Source: a virus (Duplodnaviria; Heunggongvirae; Uroviricota; Caudoviricetes). Taken from it: DNA of 10,186 nt. Below the pieces are notes generated by a model. That model was not told the DNA's origin, ran no database searches, and was given only the letters and a program-made list of their open reading frames with translations. Shown in pieces: positions 1 to 10,186 of this stretch (position 1 is the first letter of the stretch; each line of letters opens with the position of its first letter). The stretch lies in IMG/VR virus record IMGVR_UViG_2695420380_000017, one strand, 5' to 3'. Both the position numbers and the translations under genes were made by a program.

Positions 1-141
1 TTACTGCTTACACTGTAAGAACGCCGCAAACTCCGCTCCCCAGAAGCTCATCCGTATTTCACACAGCGAACCGTGCAACATCCAGATGATGAGGATTGCC
101 GTCACGCAGAACGTGATGGTCGTAAGCGATTTTTGCGACAT
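1..141 (-). CDS. hok: Hok/Gef-family type I toxin, small membrane peptide (46 aa: MSQKSLTTITFCVTAILIIWMLHGSLCEIRMSFWGAEFAAFLQCKQ)
   Basis: Hand translation of minus strand from ATG (complement of 139-141) to TAA (complement of 1-3); not in the ORF track because it is short. N-terminal hydrophobic helix followed by SLCEIR ... EFAAF, matching the Hok/Gef signature (R1 Hok: ...[25 protein letters not shown], from memory). AAGGAG RBS about 8 nt upstream of the ATG. Confidence 0.7.
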   Translation of the reverse strand: MSQKSLTTITFCVTAILIIWMLHGSLCEIRMSFWGAEFAAFLQCKQ

Positions 142-331: not shown

Positions 332-592
332 TTAATTCTGAGGTAAAGGCAAGCTCATCTGATTGTTTCCCCTGTGTGAAGCTGGCAGATCATGCCACGG
401 GATATCTTCTGAAGAGTGAACGCCGGAGGCGTGTTTTGATGTGAATTTATGGAAAGCTTCCAGTGTTGAGAAGCATACGCCGCATTCCAGATTGTTACAC
501 TGGTAATACTTTTGCCGCACGGTGTTTGAATCATTTTCCGGACGACTGGTGCGGATACGGGCAGATGCGCCACAAAGCGGACAACGGAACAT
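332..592 (-). CDS. ogr: Ogr/Delta-family zinc-finger late transcription activator
   Basis: N-terminus MFRCPLCGASARIRTSR...YYQCNNLECGVCF matches P2 Ogr (MFHCPLC...RTSR...YHQCQNVNC...) with the four-Cys pattern. Strong RBS AAGGGAGG just upstream; lies downstream of gene D as in P2. Confidence 0.85.
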   Translation of the reverse strand: MFRCPLCGASARIRTSRPENDSNTVRQKYYQCNNLECGVCFSTLEAFHKFTSKHASGVHSSEDIPWHDLPASHRGNNQMSLPLPQN

Positions 593-603
593 AGCGACCT
601 CCC

Positions 604-2364
604 TTAACGTAGTGCAGGGGCTATTCTAAGTTGTTCTGGCTCATACTCCAACAGCCAGTCCGTTTCGAGCGAAAAGCGGTGATTTAACTCTTGAAGAAAT
701 AGGCTTTGATACGATTTATCCAAAGCCTGTAAAAGATTGGAATGTTTTTTNNNNNNNNNNNNNNNNNNNNNNNNNNNNNNNNNNNNNNNNNNNNNNNNNN
801 NNNNNNNNNNNNNNNNNNNNNNNNNNNNNNNNNNNNNNNNNNNNNNNNNNNNNNNNNNNNNNNNNNNNNNNNNNNNNNNNNNNNNNNNNNNNNNNNNNNN
901 NNNNNNNNNNNNNNNNNNNNNNNNNNNNNNNNNNNNNNNNNNNNNNNNNNNNNNNNNNNNNNNNNNNNNNNNNNNNNNNNNNNNNNNNNNNNNNNNNNNN
1001 NNNNNNNNNNNNNNNNNNNNNNNNNNNNNNNNNNNNNNNNNNNNNNNNNNNNNNNNNNNNNNNNTGGCTGTATATACGAACAACGGGAATATTTCTTCTT
1101 TGACTTGATGACGCCACTCTTCGCATTCCAGCGATACAACTTGAACTGGCTCATTTCTCTTTTCTTTATAATAAAAATCGTTTTTATCCCTTTCTGTTGG
1201 AGTAAGAGATAACAAAGGACCAATTTCTTTTGAAATTATACTGGATAGCGGTGTTTCCAAAGCTCCCCCAGCGTAAGGCATTCTTTCTGTTACGCCACAT
1301 ACACTACGCCATTTTCCTTTGGGGGCGGTAGGGGCTGAAGGTAGGTCAATCCTTTTGCTTTCAGTCAGCTCTTCCATTATCTCCCAATTAAATCCACACA
1401 GACGAAAATCTCCTTTTGCTGTAAATGTTACCACAGCACGTTCAGCGATAGTATAACCTGTGTTTTGTAATAAAAACGACAGCGGGTAATTTATTGCCTT
1501 CGGATTAATATGAGTATGACAGTTTTTCAGTATTTCTTCACACTGCTTTTTCCAAAGTGGATAATGTTTTTCTTTATAAAGAGAAATATCATCTGCTGAT
1601 ACAGGGAAATACTCCTGTTGACTAAATGACTTGATGATTTTTTCTAGTGATTGTGGGGTAGTTTGTTCATTGTCAAAGTTTGTAACCAATGGGAATGCAT
1701 CCGTTAGTTGACAAAGCAAATTATCAACTTCATATTCAGATAAAGCTGTATAATAAGGAAGTACAATATTTAATTGCTCGTCATCGGCTACTTTAATGCT
1801 GAAATCGGGCATAGACTGAGTGAATTGCTTCAGCTTAGCTTCCAGCAATTTAATTTGTTTATCCTTTTCATCTGGCTCAGCAGGAAGCAACCATGAAGAA
1901 GGCACTTTATAGCAGATTATATTATGTTTTATTGCTGAAAAACGTGGACCGCTATCATTGGTAATGATTGCCACCTCCGAATCTGGATCGTCAGCGCAAT
2001 ACCCTGCCGCAATACCAACAAAACGATCGTCGGCCTCCTGATAATCCAATTGTTCAGATAACTGTTCACATGGTTTCAGGCTTAGATCCATGGTAAGAAA
2101 AACTCGCGGCGAGCGTTCACGAATAACAAGAGTCATGTCAGTTGAATCAACTACTTGATTAAATAGGCTAGCAGCCTTCCTTGCTTTTTTGGATAGGCGG
2201 GAATTACCTTGCCCTTTCTGGCGGTCAATCTCTTGCTGAATGGGCCTTGTAATAATGATACATACTTCATCACAAGCAGTAATCTCGGAAAAATTTACCT
2301 GCGTCAAGTCCTTGCATTGTAGAAAAATGTTTGAGTCTGGGAATAAATACAGCTTTTTGTTCAT
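604..2364 (-). CDS. AT-rich cargo ORF, 586 codons, PIN-like predicted nuclease N-terminus and uncharacterised C-terminal ~430 aa (interrupted by N run 751-1064)
   Basis: Long ORF with GAGG RBS 5 nt before the ATG (complement of 2362-2364). Visibly AT-rich against the GC-rich flanking phage genes. N-terminal ~150 aa carries a PIN-like acidic pattern: LYLFPDSNIFL, QQEIDRQ, ADDPD, AIITNDSGPRF. Sits between D and ogr, which are adjacent in P2. Confidence 0.75.
   Translation of the reverse strand: MNKKLYLFPDSNIFLQCKDLTQVNFSEITACDEVCIIITRPIQQEIDRQKGQGNSRLSKKARKAASLFNQVVDSTDMTLVIRERSPRVFLTMDLSLKPCEQLSEQLDYQEADDRFVGIAAGYCADDPDSEVAIITNDSGPRFSAIKHNIICYKVPSSWLLPAEPDEKDKQIKLLEAKLKQFTQSMPDFSIKVADDEQLNIVLPYYTALSEYEVDNLLCQLTDAFPLVTNFDNEQTTPQSLEKIIKSFSQQEYFPVSADDISLYKEKHYPLWKKQCEEILKNCHTHINPKAINYPLSFLLQNTGYTIAERAVVTFTAKGDFRLCGFNWEIMEELTESKRIDLPSAPTAPKGKWRSVCGVTERMPYAGGALETPLSSIISKEIGPLLSLTPTERDKNDFYYKEKRNEPVQVVSLECEEWRHQVKEEIFPLFVYTAXXXXXXXXXXXXXXXXXXXXXXXXXXXXXXXXXXXXXXXXXXXXXXXXXXXXXXXXXXXXXXXXXXXXXXXXXXXXXXXXXXXXXXXXXXXXXXXXXXXXXXXXXKKHSNLLQALDKSYQSLFLQELNHRFSLETDWLLEYEPEQLRIAPALR
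751..1064. other. Run of 314 N inside the cargo ORF
   Basis: Directly visible; about 105 codons of the cargo protein are unreadable. Confidence 1.
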
Positions 2365-2399
2365 TCAAACCTCAACTATGTCAATGGTGTTAGATTAAT

Positions 2400-2427
2400 A
2401 TAATAATAGTTATCAATTGGTTATCAA
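2400..2427 (-). promoter_or_regulatory. Candidate sigma70 promoter for the cargo ORF (minus strand -35 TTGATA, 16-nt spacer, -10 TATTAT)
   Basis: Read on the minus strand: TTGATA (plus 2422-2427) and TATTAT (plus 2400-2405), in the AT-rich 225-bp gap between D and the cargo ORF. Sequence match only. Confidence 0.25.
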
Positions 2428-2589
2428 AGCATGATTCTTACCACCCCTGATGTCAGGTAGGAAAACACCATATGTTTCTGCTCTGTTTTTCCTTAGAAAT
2501 AGGCATCCTTGCTGGAACAAAGCGAGCAGCTATATTGACTCTATGTTGTGAGTGTGTTGATCCGTTCTGAGTTAATACATTTAAGTTGC

Positions 2590-3699
2590 TCACTCTGTTT
2601 CTGCTATCCATTCCGGGATTTTTGCCTCAAGCTCAAGCTGCGTGGTAAAGCCGCTGTTATCAATGGTGTGCTCGGCTTTTGCAATAATCCAGTCCTGATT
2701 ATCAATCTCGCTTTTAAATCCTGTTACCGTGCCATGCATTTCGGGGTAGAGTTCTGCACGTCCATGCGCCAGTGTGATGGAGAATGATGCGGCTCCGCGT
2801 TGTAGCTGCTGCCACTTTGCCGCCGCTGCACGTCTTGCTGCCTGCTCGTTCTGATAAGTTTTGCGTAACACAAACACGTTGCCTTCCGCACCTTCCATAT
2901 AGTCGCCTTCCCGGCTGCTGCTTTTCTCCTTTTTTGGTTTTGACGGTTTGCGGCGTTTCACGCTGACTTTTTTCTTTTTCCCGTAATTAAGATCAAGCCA
3001 GTAAGCGCGTACCCCCGTATACGCTTCGCGGTCAGCAATGCGGAACTGATGGCGATCGCCGCTGCTGCGTGTGATGGCGAACGAGGGCAACGGCTGGCCC
3101 TGTGCGTTCACGCCACCACCGGGCATGATGAATAACAGATTACCGCTTTTTACCGTGGTGATTGCGCCCAGCATTTCCGCCATGCGCGTAAGGAAGGACA
3201 TGTCGCTTTCTTCGGTCTGGTCGGCGTGGTCGATTTCGATATCCATCAGCATTTCGCTGATTTGCGGTTTCAGACCATACCGATGAGCGATGGCGGATAC
3301 CACACGCTCAACGGTCACATCATGCCAGGACACCTCACGTTTAACGTTAAATTCAGCCCGAAAATCTGCGCTTCTGGCTGAAACAGTCAGCCTGTCCGGC
3401 GGTCCTTCGTGAGCGATTTCATCAACAATGTAAGTGCCTTTTTCTGTCAGCGGTTCTCCCTTCCAGCCAATGAGAACCGTCAGGCGCGCGCCCCGTGGCG
3501 GTAGCTGCAACTGACCATCCGCATCATCCAGCGTGATGGTGAGCTGGTCCGCCTCAAATCCCCGGTTGTCGGTCAGTGACAGGCTCATCAGGCGCTCTGC
3601 CACGCCTGACAGCGTTTTACCCTCCGCGAGAATATCAAAATCCGGCATTTTCACGGGGTCTGTGCCCTGACTGAGCAATTGCATGGTGGTGTCGGTCAT
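2590..3699 (-). CDS. D: P2 gpD-family tail protein (late control gene D)
   Basis: Motifs SLSLTDNRGFEAD, GWKGEPL, ITRSSGDRHQFRIADREAYTGV, a lysine-rich linker, EFSITLA and GFK..ID.QDW...SGFTT.LELE match gpD as recalled. Start placed at the ATG (MTDTTMQ...) preceded by a GGGAGGGAG RBS rather than the upstream in-frame Met at 3831. Confidence 0.9.
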   Translation of the reverse strand: MTDTTMQLLSQGTDPVKMPDFDILAEGKTLSGVAERLMSLSLTDNRGFEADQLTITLDDADGQLQLPPRGARLTVLIGWKGEPLTEKGTYIVDEIAHEGPPDRLTVSARSADFRAEFNVKREVSWHDVTVERVVSAIAHRYGLKPQISEMLMDIEIDHADQTEESDMSFLTRMAEMLGAITTVKSGNLLFIMPGGGVNAQGQPLPSFAITRSSGDRHQFRIADREAYTGVRAYWLDLNYGKKKKVSVKRRKPSKPKKEKSSSREGDYMEGAEGNVFVLRKTYQNEQAARRAAAAKWQQLQRGAASFSITLAHGRAELYPEMHGTVTGFKSEIDNQDWIIAKAEHTIDNSGFTTQLELEAKIPEWIAETE

Positions 3700-3856
3700 C
3701 TGCTCCCTCCCTGTGTGGCATGGTCGCATGTGCGTGCGGAGGGGGTTACTGCTTTTTGTTGTCGCCGTGGCGGGAGAATGGCGCAGGGGTGAGATTACGC
3801 GCGTGGTGGGTGATGATTGTTGCCGAATCATTTAACGGATACAAGGGGTTGAAGCT

Positions 3857-5041
3857 ATGAGTGAAACTCGTTTTCATGGTGCCCGTGTTACGGAAAATAC
3901 CGACCTGGTAACAGCGATTAACGATGTTGATTCCAGCGTTATCGGTATCGTGGCAACGGCGGATGATGCGGACGCGGAGCTGTTCCCGCTGAACAAGCCC
4001 ACACTGCTGCCCCGCGTCAATGACGTGCTGGGAAAATGCGGAACAACGGGGACGCTTTATCGTGCGCTTAAGGCCATCGCAGACCAGGTGAGCACAAAGG
4101 TGATCGTCGTTCGCGTGGCTGAACACAAAGAAGAAGACGGAAAAACGCAGGATCAACTGGTTATCGGTGGTTCTGAATCTGACGGCAGCTATACGGGGAT
4201 GTATGCGCTGCTTGTTGCAGAGCAGGATGAAAGCATCGGATACCGTCCGCGTATTCTGGCCGCGCCGGAGCTGGACACGGAGGCGGTGACAAAATCCCTG
4301 TGCGTGATTGCGGGTAAACTGCGCGCGTTTGTGTATGCCTCATGTCATGACTGTAACACGATGGCTGAGGCAATTACCTACCGCCAGAAATTCAACGAAC
4401 GTGAGGTGATGCTCTTATGGCCGGACTTCATCGCCTACAACCCGAAAAGTGGCAAAAACGAAACGTTCCCCGCGCCTGCCTATGCGTGCGGCCTTCGTGC
4501 GTACATTGACCATGAGCAGGGCTGGCACAAATCGCTGTCCAACGTTCCGGTTAAAAATGTGCTGGGGATGTCCAGGCATGTGTTCTGGTCGTTGCAGGCC
4601 GAAGACAGTGATGCCAACAGCCTCAACAACAAAGAAATCACGACCATTATTCGTCGCAACGGGTTCCGCTTCTGGGGCAACCGCACACCGGAAACGAACG
4701 CCTACATCTTTGAGGTGTATACCCGAACCGCACAGGTGCTGGCTGATTCAATTGCGGAAGCGCAGTTTGAAACCATCGACAGTCCACTGACGCCTGCGAA
4801 CGTGAAGGATGTTATCGGTGCCATCAGGGCAAAACTGGATTCACTGGTTACTGCCGGGAAACTGATTGGGGCGTCGTGCTGGTATGACGTGGTGGATAAC
4901 GGCACCACGAATTTACGTCAGGGGCGCGTGCGTATTCGCTACAAATATACGCCTGTTCCCCCGCTGGAAGACATGGAGCTTTACCAGTCGTTTACTGATG
5001 AATTCTTTGGTCCCGCATTTGCGGTGCTGGGAGGTGCCTGA
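3857..5041 (+). CDS. FI: Contractile tail sheath protein (P2 gpFI family)
   Basis: 394 aa; motifs FPLNKP, AIADQ, KLRAF, WPDF, EQGWHK.LSNV, IRR.GFRFWGNRT, YTPVPPLE match P2 FI as recalled. Stop overlaps the FII start (ATGA). Confidence 0.93.
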   Translation: MSETRFHGARVTENTDLVTAINDVDSSVIGIVATADDADAELFPLNKPTLLPRVNDVLGKCGTTGTLYRALKAIADQVSTKVIVVRVAEHKEEDGKTQDQLVIGGSESDGSYTGMYALLVAEQDESIGYRPRILAAPELDTEAVTKSLCVIAGKLRAFVYASCHDCNTMAEAITYRQKFNEREVMLLWPDFIAYNPKSGKNETFPAPAYACGLRAYIDHEQGWHKSLSNVPVKNVLGMSRHVFWSLQAEDSDANSLNNKEITTIIRRNGFRFWGNRTPETNAYIFEVYTRTAQVLADSIAEAQFETIDSPLTPANVKDVIGAIRAKLDSLVTAGKLIGASCWYDVVDNGTTNLRQGRVRIRYKYTPVPPLEDMELYQSFTDEFFGPAFAVLGGA

Positions 5042-5553
5042 TGGCTGTACCAAAACATCTTCGCTTTTTTACGCTGTTTGTGGATGGTGAAAACGAAGTG
5101 GGTAAGGTGACGTCCGTCACTCTGCCTAAGCTGACGCGCAAAACCGACAGCTACCGGGGTGGTGGCATGATGGGAGCGGTAAGTATTGATCTCGGCCTGG
5201 ATGACTCCGCGCTTGATGCGAGCTTTGTCATGGGGGGCGCAGTTCGTGAGCTGTTCCTTAAGTATGGCGGCACGATTGACGGTACGCTGCTGCGTTTTGC
5301 GGGTGAATACTACACCGACGCTGAAAGCGACCTGTATGAAGTCGAAATGCGCGGACGTGTGACGGAAATTGATATGGGGGAAGCCAAACAGGGCGAAGCC
5401 ACATCACACACTTACGCCATTAAAAACACCTACTACAAGCTGAGTGTTAACGATCGCCCGTTGTGGGAGATTGACCTGCTGAACTTCATTTACCGGAAGG
5501 ACGGCAGGGACATTGTGCCCGATCGCATCCGTTCCGCGCTCGGGCTTGGCTGA
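5041..5553 (+). CDS. FII: Tail tube protein (P2 gpFII family)
   Basis: 170 aa; TLPKLTRK..YRGGGM...DLGLDD...RFAG.Y and EVEMRGR..EID.GE.KQGE resemble P2 FII as recalled. GGAGG RBS; translationally coupled to FI. Confidence 0.92.
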   Translation: MAVPKHLRFFTLFVDGENEVGKVTSVTLPKLTRKTDSYRGGGMMGAVSIDLGLDDSALDASFVMGGAVRELFLKYGGTIDGTLLRFAGEYYTDAESDLYEVEMRGRVTEIDMGEAKQGEATSHTYAIKNTYYKLSVNDRPLWEIDLLNFIYRKDGRDIVPDRIRSALGLG

Positions 5554-6137: not shown

Positions 6138-9062
6138 TATCCGGGTCGCTTTCAGCGCCGTTGACAGGCTGACCCGGCCTGCCGAAAACGCCCGCCGCCT
6201 GATGGGGCAGTTTGGTGACTCCATCCAGCGAACGCAGGGGGCGATCAAAAATCTCGAGCGTCAGGCGCGTTCATTTGAGCGCGCCCGTGACGCTGTCAGT
6301 AAAGCGGATGCGGGCATCGTGAAAGCACGACGCCAGCTTAACGCCCTTAATCAGTTACAACGCACGGGTACAGTGCTCAGCGAAAAACAACAAAAGCTGA
6401 TGCAGCAGTTAAGCACCCGGCTTGAACGCCTGAATGAATCGCGCACACGGGAAATTCAGAAAATGCGGGAACTTGGCGGAGAGCTGAAACGCCACGGCAT
6501 TTCCCTGACAGGCAGCGATAACACCATCCAGCAGGCCATCAGACGCACCGGACAATACAACAACCAGCTTGAACGCGAACGGCGGGCGCTTGCGCGTGTA
6601 ACGCAGGCGCGTGAGCGGTATTCACGCGCGCAGGAAACAGCGGGAAAACTGAAAACAGGTGGTGCGCTGGCAACAGGTGCGGCGGCAGCGGGCGGCTATG
6701 CTGCCGGGCGTTTTTTGCAGCCCGCTATCGGGTTCGGGAAAGAGATGTCCCGTGTTCAGGCACTGACGCGAATCGATAAAAACAGCCCGCAGTTTAAGGC
6801 GCTGCGTGAGCAGGCGTTAAAACTTGGCTCTGAAACGCAGTTCACCGCAGGCGATGCCGCCAGTGGACAGGCATTTCTTGCAATGGCTGGTTTCACACCG
6901 CAGGCCATTCAGGCTGCGCTTCCCGGCGTGCTGAGCATGGCAACGGCTGGCGGTATGGACCTCGGCGAGACGGCGGATATTGGTTCCAATATCCTGACGC
7001 AGTTCGGCCTCTCTGCTGACCAGATGGACCGGGTCGGTGACACACTTACCGCAGCGTTTACCCGTACCAACACTGACCTTCGCGCACTGGGCGAAACCAT
7101 GAAATATGCAGGTCCGGTGGCGGGTAAGCTGGGAATATCGCTGGAGCAGGCCGCAGCGATGGCGGGCGTGCTGGCGAAGATGGGTATCAGGGGGAGTGAT
7201 GCAGGTACAGCGTTGCGTAAAAGCCTGGCCAATCTGTCATCACCGCCAAAGGCAGCGGCAGAAGCACTGAAAGAGCTGGGGGTGTCAGTTGCTGACGCCA
7301 AAGGCAAAATGCGCCCGATGGAGAATGTGCTGGCCGATCTCTATAAAGCCACCCGCAAATACGGGGAGGTTGACCGGGTATCGTTCTTTAAGGACATTGC
7401 CGGAGAAGAGGCTTTCACATCATTTATGGGCCTCGTTGATGCGGCAGGTGACGGCTTCTTAGCCAAACTGAGAAAAGAACTTGAAGGCGCGCGCGGTGAG
7501 GCAGAACGCACGGCAAAGGTTATGGCCAATAACCTTGATGGCAACCTGAAATCACTCGGCAGTGCATGGGAAGGTCTGCGTATTCGCATCAGTGATCTGG
7601 TTGACGGTCCGCTGCGTTCTGTCACGCAGTGGCTCACGCGGGTTGTCTCAAAGGTGACGGCGCTGGCGCAGGCCCACCCGGCACTGACGCGCCAGTTACT
7701 GATAGCGGGAGGCGCACTGCTGGCGACAACAGCAACGGTTGGTTCGTTGTCTCTGGTTATTGGGGTGCTTCACGGGAAGCTGGCTACGTTGCGTCTCGGT
7801 TTTTCTCTCCTGACCGAATCAATGAATGTTGTCAGGGTTCTGCCTGCATTATGGGGAATGGTGACGGGTTCCGTTTCTTTACTTGGTGGCGCTATCGGGG
7901 CGCTGTTCAGTCCGGTTAGTCTTATCGTGGCTGCGCTTGCCGGAGCTGCCGTTCTTATCTGGAAATACTGGGATCCCATCAGGGCATTTTTTGCCGGGGT
8001 GTTCAGCGGGATTATGGAAAGGCTGACCCCGTTGCGCGAAACCTTTGAACGNNNNNNNNNNNNNNNNNNNNNNNNNNNNNNNNNNNNNNNNNNNNNNNNN
8101 NNNNNNNNNNNNNNNNNNNNNNNNNNNNNNNNNNNNNNNNNNNNNNNNNNNNNNNNNNNNNNNNNNNNNNNNNNNNNNNNNNNNNNNNNNNNNNNNNNNN
8201 NNNNNNNNNNNNNNNNNNNNNNNNNNNNNNNNNNNNNNNNNNNNNNNNNNNNNNNNNNNNNNNNNNNNNNNNNNNNNNNNNNNNNNNNNNNNNNNNNNNN
8301 NNNNNNNNNNNNNNNNNNNNNNNNNNNNNNNNNNNNNNNNNNNNNNNNNNNNNNNNNNNNNNNNNNNNNNNNNNNNNNNNNNNNNNNNNNNNNNNNNNNN
8401 NNNNNNNNNNNNNNNNNNNNNNNNNNNNNNNNNNNNNNNNNNNNNNNNNNNNNNNNNNNNNNNNNNNNNNNNNNNNNNNNNNNNNNNNNNNNNNNNNNNN
8501 NNNNNNNNNNNNNNNNNNNNNNNNNNNNNNNNNNNNNAAACCCAAAGACAACAAACCGCTCACANNNNNNNNNNNNNNNNNNNNNNNNNNNNNNNNNNNN
8601 NNNNNNNNNNNNNNNNNNNNNNNNNNNNNNNNNNNNNNNNNNNNNNNNNNNNNNNNNNNNNNNNNNNNNNNNNNNNNNNNNNNNNNNNNNNNNNNNNNNN
8701 NNNNNNNNNNNNNNNNNNNNNNNNNNNNNNNNNNNNNNNNNNNNNNNNNCAGTAAGCCTGCCCCCGCAATTAATATCACACCCGTGGTCCCGGCTCCGCT
8801 GCCTCCGGCGCTGGTCCCTGTTGTTGCGGCCAGCTCCCGCCCGGTGGCGGAGGCCATACGCTCTCCAGTGGCATCAGTTCCTGTAACTTCCCGTAACCGG
8901 GAGCCTGTTGCCTCCGGATTTGGTGGTGAAATTCATGTTCATCTGCATAACGTTGTTACGCAGAATCCCCGCGAACTGGCGAAACTGGTCGGTGAAATGG
9001 TCAGGGCAGAAATGGAACGGCGCGCCCGTGCCGGGCGTGGCAGTTTTTACGATAAAGATTGA
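6124..9062 (+). CDS. T: Tail tape measure protein (P2 gpT family), interrupted by two N runs; start may be 6115 or GTG 6088
   Basis: Long ORF between E' and U: coiled-coil-like Arg/Glu/Gln-rich N-terminus, Ala/Gly-rich middle, hydrophobic stretch LLIAGGALLATTATVGSLSLVIGVLHG. After the N runs the open frame (8751-9062) ends FYDKD* with TGA at 9060-9062 overlapping the U RBS. Reading frame before and after the N runs differs by one (see findings). Confidence 0.8.
8052..8537. other. Run of 486 N inside the tape measure gene
   Basis: Directly visible. Confidence 1.
8565..8749. other. Run of 185 N inside the tape measure gene, separated from the previous run by a 27-nt readable island (8538-8564)
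   Basis: Directly visible. Confidence 1.
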
Positions 9063-9068
9063 GGAGTC

Positions 9069-9563
9069 ATGGCCATGATGATGATCTACGGCATGTTTGT
9101 TTTTGAGCTGCGTACATTGCCGCATCAGCAGTTACAGCAAAACAAAAGCTGGCGGCATGTGAAAAATGAACGCGTTAACCGTTCGGCAAGCTGGCAGTAT
9201 ATCGGTGCAGGTGATGAGCGCATCGTTCTTTCTGGTGTGCTTTATCCTGAAATTACAGGTGGCGAAGTGTCGCTGTCGCTGCTGACCACGCAGGCGTATA
9301 CAGGACGACCCTGGCCTCTGATTGATGGCGTCGGGCAGATTTACGGCATGTATGTCCTGACCGAAACGAATACGACCCGCTCCGAGTTTGATCGCTACGG
9401 TAAGGCGAAAAAGATAGAATTTTCACTGACTCTTGAACGCTGTGATGAGGATTTGCGGGAGCGCCTGCAATCCTCATCGTTCAGCGATATGCTGTCCGGC
9501 TTCAAAGATAAGGTAACATCATCCCTTAACAGCGCGGCCAGTTCAGTTAAAGGGTTGTTCTGA
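9069..9563 (+). CDS. U: Tail protein U (P2 gpU family); true start may be ATG 9075 for better RBS spacing
   Basis: 164 aa; MMMIYGMFVFELRTLP resembles the P2 gpU N-terminus as recalled. GAGGAG at 9061-9066 and position immediately after T. Confidence 0.87.
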   Translation: MAMMMIYGMFVFELRTLPHQQLQQNKSWRHVKNERVNRSASWQYIGAGDERIVLSGVLYPEITGGEVSLSLLTTQAYTGRPWPLIDGVGQIYGMYVLTETNTTRSEFDRYGKAKKIEFSLTLERCDEDLRERLQSSSFSDMLSGFKDKVTSSLNSAASSVKGLF

Positions 9564-9574
9564 TTTAACACAAA

Positions 9575-9608
9575 AACCGCTAATGGTCAGATTAGCGGTT
9601 ATTTTGTT
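9575..9608. terminator. Bidirectional rho-independent terminator between U and the invertase
   Basis: Perfect 10-bp stem AACCGCTAAT (9575-9584) and ATTAGCGGTT (9591-9600) with 6-nt loop, A-run upstream and ATTTTGTTT downstream. The invertase stop codon lies in the right arm. Confidence 0.6.
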
Positions 9609-10186
9609 TCCTGACTCTTCTCTATTGTTCCGATTGATTCTCCTGCGGGGTGGTAACGATAAATCGTCGATATACCAATGCCGTAAATTATTGCCAGTTG
9701 TTTTCTGTCGTGCCCGTTTTTGATCAGCCTTGCTATTTGCTCATGCTGTTCTTTTGTCAGCTTCGGTCGACGTCCGCCTGTGCGCCCCCGTGCGCGTGCT
9801 GCCGCCAGTCCGGCCAGTGTACGTTCAACAATTAATTCACGTTCCATTTCAGCCAGGGCACCCATCACGTGGAAGAAAAAACGCCCCATTGGAGAAGATG
9901 TATCTATGCTGTCGGTCAGACTGCGAAAATTAATTCCTCGCTCCCGTAGTTCCCCGACGAGAGAAATCAGATGTTTCATGCTTCGCCCGAGGCGATCCAG
10001 TTTCCAGACAACCAGCGTGTCACCTTTTTGAAGGCGCTTTAAAGCGCGTTTTAATCCCGGTCGGTCTGTCTTTGTCCCGCTTAATTTATCTTCAAATATT
10101 TGTTCACATCCTGCACAAACAAGAGCGTTTCGTTGCAGGTCTGTATTCTGGTCATTTGTTGATACCCTTACATAGCCAATCAGCAC
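9599..10186 (-). CDS. Serine DNA invertase, Gin/Pin/Cin/Hin family (N-terminus coincides with the window edge)
   Basis: 195 aa; GYVRVSTNDQ (catalytic Ser), DRPGLKRAL, GDTLVVWKLDRLGRS, MGRFFFHVMGALAEMERELIVERT and C-terminal HTH GIGISTIYRY; almost identical to Gin/Pin as recalled. First codon in the window is GTG at 10184-10186, so the start is either this GTG or lies beyond the edge. Confidence 0.93.
   Translation of the reverse strand: MLIGYVRVSTNDQNTDLQRNALVCAGCEQIFEDKLSGTKTDRPGLKRALKRLQKGDTLVVWKLDRLGRSMKHLISLVGELRERGINFRSLTDSIDTSSPMGRFFFHVMGALAEMERELIVERTLAGLAAARARGRTGGRRPKLTKEQHEQIARLIKNGHDRKQLAIIYGIGISTIYRYHPAGESIGTIEKSQETK

What the first reader, a model, noticed from the sequence alone, without database searches (positions are those of the whole stretch)
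604..2589. AT-rich 586-aa cargo gene with PIN-like N-terminus inserted between tail gene D and ogr: candidate undescribed single-gene anti-phage system
In P2 and its relatives D is followed directly by ogr. Here about 2 kb of markedly AT-rich DNA sits between them: a 225-bp intergenic region with a plausible promoter and one long ORF. Its N-terminal ~150 aa show a PIN-like acidic pattern (FPDSN, QQEIDRQ, ADDPD, ITNDSGPRF), suggesting a Mg-dependent nuclease. The remaining ~430 aa match nothing I recognise. Composition, position in an otherwise conserved operon and domain make-up fit a moron of the kind P2-like prophages carry at variable loci. About 105 codons are hidden by the N run, so the domain picture is incomplete.
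Basis: partly seen in the sequence, partly recalled or inferred. Interest (0 to 1): 0.85.

Follow-up and report, generated by a model that had tools for sequence, protein, structure and literature searches.

The report
Prophage cargo gene: PIN nuclease, likely anti-phage
A foreign, AT-rich gene inserted between tail gene D and ogr of a P88/P2-like E. coli prophage encodes a 500-residue (not 586) PIN-type RNase fused to a conserved, unnamed C-terminal module. Its relatives sit in known anti-phage hotspots and next to known defence systems, so it is a good but untested candidate single-gene phage-defence protein.

Summary
About 1.95 kb of 38% GC DNA lies between D (54% GC) and ogr, which are 38-95 bp apart in 18 of 20 related species loci.

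The 586-aa length is an artefact of reading through the N run. In E. coli O111 11128, which has one mismatch to the window over window 1067-2700, the gene stops inside the masked stretch and encodes 500 aa (WP_001035742.1, "PIN domain-containing protein").

- **Family:** large, with 1266 50%-identity clusters at E<=1e-30. It matches no PADLOC, NCBIfam or PHROGs model, and it is unrelated in sequence to the validated PIN defences DS-3 and DS-5.
- **Context:** relatives occupy three other variable sites of P2-like prophages, an ICE, a type I R-M operon, and a site beside Gabija. No partner gene is conserved.

Best reading (confidence 0.6): an autonomous single-gene anti-phage RNase. No phenotype has been tested. 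I rate it a new variant of a known kind.

The parts
862..2364 (-). Cargo gene for a 500-aa PIN_4 + linker + Ig-like beta-sandwich protein (WP_001035742.1 family). Residues 1-433 are visible (window 2364-1066). Residues 434-500 and the stop codon are hidden in the N run, so the end coordinate is projected from E. coli O111 11128.
1900..2337 (-). PIN_4 domain, residues about 10-155. Conserved acidic residues are D10, E45, D47, D112, D113 and D137.
1066..1899 (-). Visible part of the C-terminal module, residues about 156-433. It comprises a linker helix, a small alpha/beta unit, a long helix (257-286) and the first half of the beta-sandwich. It carries Y263, Y268, W271, C275, H283, N301, G303, P345, P348, C414, W417, R418 and H419.
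751..1064 (.). N run of 314 nt. It hides the last 67 codons, the stop codon and about 85-110 nt of the 3' flank. It is 26 nt longer than the 288 nt it replaces in O111 11128.
   Evidence: reference sequence.
2365..2589 (-). 225-bp upstream region that travels with the gene. Promoter-like -35 TTGATA (2427-2422) and -10 TATTAT (2405-2400), SD GAGG (2373-2370), ATG at 2364.
   Evidence: Sequence and promoter scan (the count is not above chance). About 130 nt upstream of the ATG, including these motifs, are conserved with the Rahnella copy, which sits at a different prophage site.
593..750 (-). Non-coding 3' flank of the insert, wrongly read as the ORF's C-terminus. It holds a hairpin at 728-701 followed by a U-tract (possible terminator). 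At about 672-627 it holds a diverged relic of a D 3' end.
   Evidence: Identical to 11128 DNA lying downstream of the annotated stop. Fold gives dG -10.7 kcal/mol, z -2.3. Alignment to the D 3' end and to the uninserted Salmonella junction.
2582..2588 (-). Left junction of the insert: CAACTTA immediately after the D stop codon (2592-2590).
627..633 (-). Right junction: a second CAACTTA. From here to ogr the sequence matches the uninserted D-ogr spacer (GAATAGC...GGGAGG...ATG).
2590..3831 (-). Tail/baseplate hub gene D, the left flanking core gene. The longest ORF is 413 aa, and the true start is probably further downstream.
   Evidence: Pfam Phage_GPD E 5e-17. It is 98% identical to the Salmonella prophage D.
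332..592 (-). ogr, the late-gene activator, which is the right flanking core gene.
   Evidence: Pfam Ogr_Delta E 5e-14.

Best explanation
The insert is an autonomous one-gene cassette (a moron) carried by a P88-like (Xuanwuvirus, P2-related) prophage. I propose it encodes a single-polypeptide anti-phage nuclease.

Shown:
- The protein has 500 aa. It has an N-terminal PIN_4 (SMG6-type) domain with a fully conserved acidic metal-binding set.
- A helical linker follows, then an Ig-like beta-sandwich that carries its own invariant residues (W271, N301, G303, C414, R418, H419, N451).
- Two disordered, hypervariable loops lie at residues 231-249 and 357-388.
- The gene moves with its own upstream region and has no conserved partner gene.
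- Relatives lie in several P2-prophage variable sites, in an ICE, inside a type I R-M operon and next to Gabija.

Inferred:
- The gene is expressed from its own promoter in the lysogen.
- The PIN domain is a Mg/Mn-dependent endoribonuclease, as are its closest structural relatives (SMG6, Fcf1/Utp24, VapC).
- The enzyme is kept inactive or substrate-restricted by the C-terminal module until an infecting phage supplies a trigger.
- It then cuts RNA (tRNA, rRNA or mRNA) and blocks phage replication, probably by abortive infection.
- The variable loops are the likeliest trigger-sensing surface, and the invariant C-terminal pocket the likeliest RNA or ligand site.
For: - **Cargo behaviour:** GC is 38% against 54% for the flanks. 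The gene is present in 59 complete E. coli genomes, against 720 with the empty junction. A prophage 99.9% identical in the U-invertase region lacks it. The upstream region is conserved with a copy inserted elsewhere.
- **Same family in other variable sites:**
  - between S and V in a Rahnella P2-like prophage;
  - between portal Q and replication gene A (the classic old/tin hotspot), beside PADLOC candidate HEC-04, in Enterobacter;
  - directly after the integrase in a 186-like prophage;
  - in a Pectobacterium ICE;
  - between hsdS and hsdR of a type I R-M operon;
  - 346 bp from GajA/GajB, E 3e-208 and 6e-169.
- **The D-ogr site holds alternative cargo:** two other AT-rich single genes sit here in other strains. 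One has a weak HEPN hit.
- **Precedent:** single-protein PIN nucleases do defend E. coli, for example DS-3 (PMC13092281).
Against: - There is no experimental phenotype for any member. Nothing was found in the literature or in the supplements that could be searched.
- There is no hit to any of 5027 PADLOC models, including candidate systems. So the defence claim rests on association alone.
- The structured C-terminal module is almost as conserved as the PIN domain. That fits recognition of a conserved cellular substrate at least as well as sensing of diverse phage proteins.
- pTM is 0.56, so domain packing is uncertain.
- The promoter match is not statistically distinctive.
- One context (L005) is an ordinary chromosomal neighbourhood with only a VapC-like pair nearby.
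- The C-terminal 67 codons of this particular copy are masked, and the N run length differs by 26 nt from the reference. Intactness of this copy is therefore assumed, not seen.
Confidence: 0.6

Rival explanations
1. It is a selfish toxin or addiction-type module that stabilises the mobile element, or is merely tolerated. On this view it is a fused, self-regulated VapC-like toxin with no role against phages.
For: PIN domains are the commonest toxin fold in type II TA systems (PMC5499597). The family sits on prophages and an ICE and beside VapBC pairs in two contexts. A Hok/Gef toxin gene lies just beyond ogr in the same prophage.
Against: No antitoxin-like small gene is conserved next to it in nine contexts. 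No tandem-repeat RNA antitoxin is present. The protein is 500 aa with a conserved extra module, unlike 130-150-aa VapC toxins. Placement inside a type I R-M operon and next to Gabija is typical of defence genes. Many TA-like modules also act in defence, so the two readings overlap.
Confidence: 0.13
2. It serves the phage itself. Possible roles are an RNase that degrades host or competitor RNAs during lytic growth, an anti-defence factor (for example destroying defence-system RNAs), or a regulator of late transcripts around ogr.
For: It lies between two late-region genes, D and ogr, in the same orientation, so read-through from D is possible. Foldseek against viral structures finds PIN-domain proteins in viruses.
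Against: It is absent from all 50,697 phage records searched at the DNA level and has no PHROGs family. Most closely related prophages lack it. Relatives occur outside phages, in an ICE, an R-M operon and a chromosomal island. It carries its own conserved upstream region rather than depending on the late operon.
Confidence: 0.1
3. It is a DNA-acting or structure-specific nuclease, or a housekeeping RNA-processing enzyme, that happens to be carried on mobile DNA.
For: The PIN-like superfamily includes FEN/5' nucleases. NCBI once named the cluster 'DNA-binding protein'. The beta-sandwich match TTHA1873 has no assigned function. The C-terminal module is strongly conserved.
Against: The best structural and HMM matches are all RNA-acting PIN domains (SMG6, Nmd4, Utp24, Rrp44, VapC). 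No FEN-type helical arch or H3TH is indicated. The patchy, strain-specific distribution (59 of 5426 E. coli genomes) and low GC argue against a housekeeping role.
Confidence: 0.1
4. This particular copy is a decaying pseudogene, or the ORF is an artefact.
For: The 3' end is masked, the N run length differs by 26 nt from the reference, and the 586-aa model is an artefact.
Against: The visible 433 codons are intact and differ at one nucleotide from the 500-aa O111 allele. The NCBI cluster holds 444 sequences. The family has at least 1266 clusters, all of the same length, with invariant residues.
Confidence: 0.04

Closest known systems
DS-3 (WP_022645725.1) of the DefensePredictor study, a validated single-protein PIN-nuclease defence in E. 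coli (PMC13092281)
   Same: Both are one-gene systems with no antitoxin and with a PIN nuclease as the presumed effector. DS-3 defence was lost on mutating its catalytic residues, and its authors suggest auto-inhibition until infection.
   Different: There is no detectable sequence relationship (hhalign probability 0.2%). [quoted passage not shown] This protein has 500 aa with a contiguous N-terminal PIN_4 domain and an Ig-like C-terminal module. DS-3 has a phenotype and this family has none.
DS-5 PIN protein (WP_021513009.1, PIN_12, with a DUF5830 partner), also found in P2 hotspots (PMC13092281; supplement of PMC9122126)
   Same: Both are PIN nucleases carried in P2-like prophage variable regions.
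   Different: DS-5 is a two-gene system. It belongs to a different PIN family and shows no similarity (hhalign probability 0.2%).
SMG6/EST1A and other PIN_4 (COG1875) endoribonucleases, including bacterial PhoH2 (PIN_4 + PhoH)
   Different: This protein has no PhoH ATPase and no NMD-type partner domains. Its C-terminal module is unique to this family, and its genes lie on mobile elements.
VapC toxins of VapBC type II toxin-antitoxin systems
   Different: There is no adjacent antitoxin. The protein is three to four times larger and belongs to the PIN_4 rather than the PIN (PF01850) family.
Cargo of P2-like prophage defence hotspots (old/tin at A-Q, Z/fun, and the integrase-side sites; PMC9122126, PMC13586616, bioRxiv 10.1101/2024.10.15.618418)
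   Same: It is a low-GC accessory gene between conserved core genes, with alternative cargo at the same site in other strains. A family member lies in the A-Q hotspot itself.
   Different: The D-ogr junction is not one of the named main hotspots. At most it falls within the 'third hotspot between a tail protein and CI' of the iLund4u preprint. It is occupied in only about one in six junctions of this lineage (144 of 864 complete E. coli genomes counted).

Membership tests
PIN domain-like superfamily, PIN_4 (PF13638) group | Significant match to the family HMM above the curated threshold | tested here: met
   E 4e-8, 34 bits against a cutoff of 21.9, residues 10-151. All 40 family members tested match, best E 2e-13.
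PIN domain-like superfamily, PIN_4 (PF13638) group | Three-layer alpha/beta/alpha PIN fold | tested here: met
PIN domain-like superfamily, PIN_4 (PF13638) group | Four conserved acidic residues forming the metal site | tested here: met
   D10 is conserved in 96%, E45 in 98%, D112 in 100% and D137 in 100% of 191 relatives, with D47 at 98% as well. Their positions (after beta1, in the helix after beta2, at the start of the helix after beta3, after beta4) fit the canonical layout. Spatial clustering could not be checked because no coordinates were available.
PIN domain-like superfamily, PIN_4 (PF13638) group | Metal-dependent nuclease activity | not testable with these tools
   This needs purified protein and RNA or DNA substrates.
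VapBC type II toxin-antitoxin | Small antitoxin gene immediately upstream in an operon with the PIN toxin | tested here: not met
   No conserved neighbour was found in nine contexts. The upstream 225 bp holds no credible ORF.
VapBC type II toxin-antitoxin | Single-domain toxin of about 130-150 aa of family PF01850 | tested here: not met
   The protein has 500 aa and three modules, and it belongs to PIN_4 rather than PF01850.
PhoH2 (PIN_4 + PhoH ATPase) | C-terminal PhoH P-loop ATPase domain | tested here: not met
   No PhoH or any other NTPase hit in Pfam. The C-terminus is a beta-sandwich.
Any anti-phage system in PADLOC-DB 2.0.0 (including the PDC and HEC candidates) | HMM match to a system component | tested here: not met
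   There were 0 hits for the 433-aa and 500-aa forms at E<=1 and E<=0.1. Across 40 members there was none except one spurious MTase hit at E 0.005.
DS-3 / DS-5 PIN defence systems (DefensePredictor) | Sequence homology to the validated proteins | tested here: not met
   hhalign probability is 0.2% for both. WP_001035742 is absent from the stored supplements, some of which were truncated.
Prophage moron / hotspot cargo | Presence/absence polymorphism between conserved core genes, with alternative cargo at the same site | tested here: met
   Among complete E. coli genomes, 720 have the empty junction, 59 the PIN cargo, 65 the L024-type cargo and 20 the L007-type cargo. In the species survey 18 of 20 loci have the empty junction.
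Prophage moron / hotspot cargo | Deviant base composition and own regulatory signals | tested here: met
   GC is 38.2% against 54%. The upstream region is conserved with the Rahnella copy. There is a promoter-like site, an SD and a downstream hairpin. Promoter function is inferred only.
Anti-phage defence gene (functional class) | Recurrent co-location with known defence systems or defence hotspots | tested here: met
   Relatives lie in the P2 A-Q hotspot beside HEC-04, inside a type I R-M operon, adjacent to GajA/GajB, and at the int-att site of a 186-like prophage. Only nine contexts were sampled, and no enrichment statistics were computed.
Anti-phage defence gene (functional class) | Reduces phage replication when expressed | not testable with these tools
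   No experiment was found in the literature searched.

The most novel reading that the evidence does not exclude
This would be the founding member of a widespread, so far unnamed family of one-protein immune sensors with at least 1266 50%-identity clusters of constant architecture. In this reading, an Ig-like beta-sandwich with an invariant Y/W/C/H/N/R pocket and two hypervariable loops detects a phage component or an infection-specific ligand. It then switches on an SMG6-type PIN ribonuclease in the same polypeptide. That would be a bacterial counterpart of eukaryotic RNA-surveillance nucleases used for immunity. The family moves as a self-contained cassette between several prophage hotspots, ICEs and R-M operons.
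Probability: 0.4. Interest if true: 0.72.

Novelty: new variant of a known kind. Interest (0 to 1): 0.6.

Why it matters
If the function is confirmed, this adds a large and easily recognised family to the catalogue of single-gene anti-phage systems. The family has about 500 aa, a fixed architecture and well over a thousand sequence clusters.

It would link the SMG6-type PIN ribonuclease fold to bacterial immunity. It would also give function to a conserved beta-sandwich module that has no Pfam family.

The finding shows that the D-ogr junction of P88/P2-like prophages is a minor cargo site with at least three alternative single genes. It also shows that one cassette can occupy at least four different sites in P2-like prophages, which bears on how defence genes shuttle between hotspots.

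In practical terms, the gene is common in STEC O111 lysogens and could influence their phage susceptibility.

Tried and rejected
- **No family or system match.** NCBIfam and PHROGs gave no hit. PADLOC gave no hit in three separate scans.
- **PDB by sequence.** The family profile and the N-terminal domain alone gave only noise.
- **Fold searches.** Foldseek against afdb50 was not available. The BFVD viral library gave no full-length match, only isolated PIN or Ig-like hits.
- **Phage records.** No record holds the gene; only the D 3' end matched.
- **RNA and repeats.** Rfam found nothing in the window. There are no tandem repeats, so no ToxI-like RNA antitoxin. Generic repeat scans showed nothing meaningful around the insert or between the D/FI and U/invertase boundaries.
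- **Rejected idea: FI-U inversion.** I first thought the FI-U block had been inverted relative to D, perhaps by the neighbouring invertase. That is wrong. All 20 species loci and phage P88 itself have D divergent from FI, so this is the normal Xuanwuvirus layout.
- **Rejected idea: identity with DS-3 or DS-5.** There is no similarity.
- **Source genome.** FDAARGOS_943 matches the right end of the window at 99.9% but has no PIN cargo, so it is not the source.
- **Structure prediction.** It was repeated with P0001 as the first row.
- **Literature.** Searches for the accession, for PIN_4/PF13638 with defence terms, and for PIN single-gene anti-phage systems found nothing about this family.
Full report
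**1. What is in the window**

The window is part of a P88-like (Xuanwuvirus, Peduoviridae; P2-related) prophage. Its layout is:
- Hok/Gef toxin gene, 1-141 (-)
- ogr, 332-592 (-)
- a long AT-rich ORF (-)
- tail gene D, 2590-3831 (-)
- on the other strand FI (3857-5041), FII (5041-5553), E, T (with N runs) and U (9069-9563)
- a small serine invertase, 9599-10186 (-)

Phage P88 has the same order and orientations, as do all 20 related species loci examined. The head-to-head D/FI arrangement is therefore normal for this lineage and not a rearrangement.

**2. Checking the observation**

The ATG is at 2364, and the 225-bp spacer after the D stop codon (2592-2590) is as described. The insert has 38.2% GC, against 53.8% for D, 48.3% for ogr and 54.9% for FI-U.

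The ORF length is wrong. It appears to run to 604 only because it is read through the N run at 751-1064.

In E. coli O111:H- 11128 the same DNA has one mismatch to the window over 1067-2700. There it is annotated as a 1503-nt gene for a 500-aa 'PIN domain-containing protein', WP_001035742.1, followed by 243 nt of non-coding DNA before ogr.

Projected onto the window, the stop lies at about 864-862. So 67 codons are hidden, not 105, and window 604-750 is not coding. The N run is 26 nt longer than the 288 nt it replaces, so the hidden end of this particular copy cannot be confirmed.

**3. The site**

D is normally followed directly by ogr.
- The gap is 38-95 bp in 18 of 20 species loci that hold both genes.
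- The uninserted junction is found in 720 of 5426 complete E. coli genomes.
- The PIN cassette occupies the site in 59 genomes, mostly O111.

Two other AT-rich single genes, both on the opposite strand, occupy the same site in other strains:
- a 386-aa protein with no family match, in 20 genomes;
- a 340-aa protein with a sub-threshold HEPN_RiboL-PSP hit, in 65 genomes.

A prophage that is 99.9% identical in the U-invertase region has the empty junction.

Comparison with an uninserted Salmonella prophage places the insert between two copies of CAACTTA, at 2588-2582 and 633-627. The roughly 40 nt before the right junction look like a diverged copy of a D 3' end, and this relic is shared by all three cargo alleles. 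That pattern suggests exchange of cassettes by recombination in the flanking D and ogr sequences. This step is an inference.

The iLund4u preprint mentions a third P2 hotspot 'between a tail protein and CI'. The main published P2 hotspots lie elsewhere.

**4. The protein**

Pfam places PIN_4 at residues 10-151 (E 4e-8, 34 bits, cutoff 21.9). PADLOC, NCBIfam and PHROGs give nothing.

A word-indexed search found 52 clusters, all 470-520 aa. An exhaustive profile search found 4162 representatives at E<=1e-3 and 1266 at E<=1e-30, and the top 150 are all full length. This is a large family with a fixed architecture.

The AlphaFold2 model, built with a 40-sequence alignment, has mean pLDDT 84.4 and pTM 0.56. 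It shows:
- a PIN domain, 1-155;
- a linker helix, 166-183;
- a small alpha/beta unit, 188-223;
- a disordered loop, 231-249;
- a long helix, 257-286;
- a beta-sandwich, 290-470, interrupted by a disordered loop at 357-388;
- a C-terminal helix.

In 191 full-length relatives with median identity of 31%:
- the acidic residues D10, E45, D47, D112 and D137 are 96-100% conserved;
- the C-terminal module has equally strict positions: W271, N301, G303, P345 and H419 at 100%, N451 at 99%, C414 at 98% and R418 at 97%.

Variability is concentrated in the two disordered loops and the last helix. No member has a Pfam family for the C-terminal part.

**5. Genomic company of the family**

Nine contexts were examined.
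- This D-ogr site.
- Between tail genes S and V in a Rahnella P2-like prophage, 73% identity.
- Between portal Q and replication gene A, the classic old/tin hotspot, in an Enterobacter asburiae prophage. It lies beside an ATPase that matches PADLOC candidate HEC-04 at E 4e-44.
- Immediately after the integrase of a 186-like prophage.
- Between integrase-side genes and the type IV secretion genes of a Pectobacterium ICE.
- Between hsdS and hsdR of a type I R-M operon that also holds VapBC pairs.
- 346 bp from a Gabija pair, GajA E 3e-208 and GajB E 6e-169.
- Beside phage remnants in Raoultella.
- In a chromosomal region with a VapC-like pair.

No neighbouring gene recurs, so the unit is a single gene. 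About 130 nt upstream of the ATG are conserved between the O111 and Rahnella copies despite their different insertion sites. This stretch includes a TTGATA-16-TATTAT match (2427-2400) and the SD. The promoter match alone is not above chance. A hairpin with a U-tract at 728-701 could terminate the transcript.

**6. How it most likely works**

Shown: the protein is a mobile, self-contained gene for a PIN_4 nuclease-like protein with an intact catalytic set and a conserved extra module. It recurs in anti-phage hotspots and beside known systems.

Inferred from the PIN_4 family (SMG6 is an ssRNA endonuclease preferring Mn2+; PMC5499597) and from VapC biology: the effector cuts RNA.

Inferred from the lack of an antitoxin, and by analogy with DS-3, where the authors propose auto-inhibition (PMC13092281): the C-terminal module restrains or directs the nuclease until infection. 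The variable loops are candidate trigger sensors, and the invariant pocket is a candidate RNA or ligand site.

Whether the outcome is abortive infection or selective destruction of phage RNA cannot be decided here. I put 0.6 on 'anti-phage single-gene nuclease'. Within that reading I put about two thirds on RNA as the substrate.

**7. Comparison with what is known**

The protein is a member of the PIN_4 family, since the HMM, fold and acidic-residue tests were all met.
- It is not a VapBC toxin: it has no antitoxin, the wrong size and the wrong PIN family.
- It is not PhoH2: it has no ATPase.
- It is not in PADLOC 2.0.
- It is not related to DS-3 or DS-5.

Single-protein PIN defences and prophage hotspot cargo are both established, so the kind is not new. 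The architecture, the C-terminal module and the family are not described in anything I could search. Current DefenseFinder models and truncated supplements could not be checked.

**8. Verdict**

This is a real, well-delimited cargo gene. The gene model needs correction to 500 aa. The PIN and moron claims are confirmed. The defence role is well motivated but untested. I rate it a new variant of a known kind, with interest 0.6.

Noticed in passing
window 1-141 (-): A complete 46-aa Hok/Gef family toxin gene (Pfam E 8e-7) lies just beyond ogr, at the prophage end. Phage P88 and O111 11128 have the same gene. Rfam found no Sok-like RNA at gathering threshold.
   Followed up: partly
window 9599-10186 (-), and the whole window layout: A Hin/Gin-type small serine invertase (Resolvase E 1e-50) follows U. 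The layout hok-ogr-D(-)|FI..U(+)-invertase(-) is that of phage P88 (Xuanwuvirus) and of all 20 related species loci. D and FI are divergent in this lineage, unlike the single-direction order recalled for P2. In O111 11128 a serine O-acetyltransferase replaces the invertase, so the PIN cassette sits in at least two prophage backgrounds.
   Followed up: yes
L007 7226-8386 (-) and L024 568-1590 (-); same D-ogr site as window 593-2589: Two other AT-rich single genes occupy the D-ogr junction in other strains. One is a 386-aa protein with no Pfam or PADLOC match, in 20 complete E. coli genomes. The other is a 340-aa protein with a sub-threshold HEPN_RiboL-PSP hit (E 1e-4), in 65 genomes. Both are further untested defence candidates.
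   Followed up: partly
window 627-672 and 2582-2592: The insert is bracketed by CAACTTA on both sides. Its ogr-proximal end carries a diverged relic of a D 3' end (LETDWLLEYEPEQ against LEAKIPEWIAETE). The three cargo alleles share this relic, which hints at cassette swapping by recombination in the flanks.
   Followed up: partly
window 751-1064: The N run is 314 nt, but the corresponding stretch in O111 11128 is 288 nt. Either the source carries a 26-nt indel here or the masking does not preserve length.
   Followed up: no
L001 15524-16377 and L034 3174-4027 (equivalent to window 2590-3831): RefSeq annotates D as an 801-nt CDS plus a small overlapping pseudogene fragment in two genomes. However, a full-length D reading frame (368 aa aligned at 98-99% identity) is intact. 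This looks like an annotation quirk rather than a truncated gene.
   Followed up: partly
window 9567-9608: An 18-bp inverted repeat (89% complementary, 6-nt loop) lies between the convergent U and invertase genes. It is probably a bidirectional terminator.
   Followed up: no
L032 3612-14020: A type I R-M operon (hsdM, hsdS, hsdR) is interleaved with three VapBC/Phd-PIN pairs as well as the PIN_4 family member. This is a dense nest of PIN nucleases inside one restriction operon.
   Followed up: no
window 8052-8537 and 8565-8749: Two further N runs (486 and 185 nt) mask part of the tape-measure gene T. The 932-aa ORF listed there therefore has the same read-through caveat as the PIN ORF.
   Followed up: no
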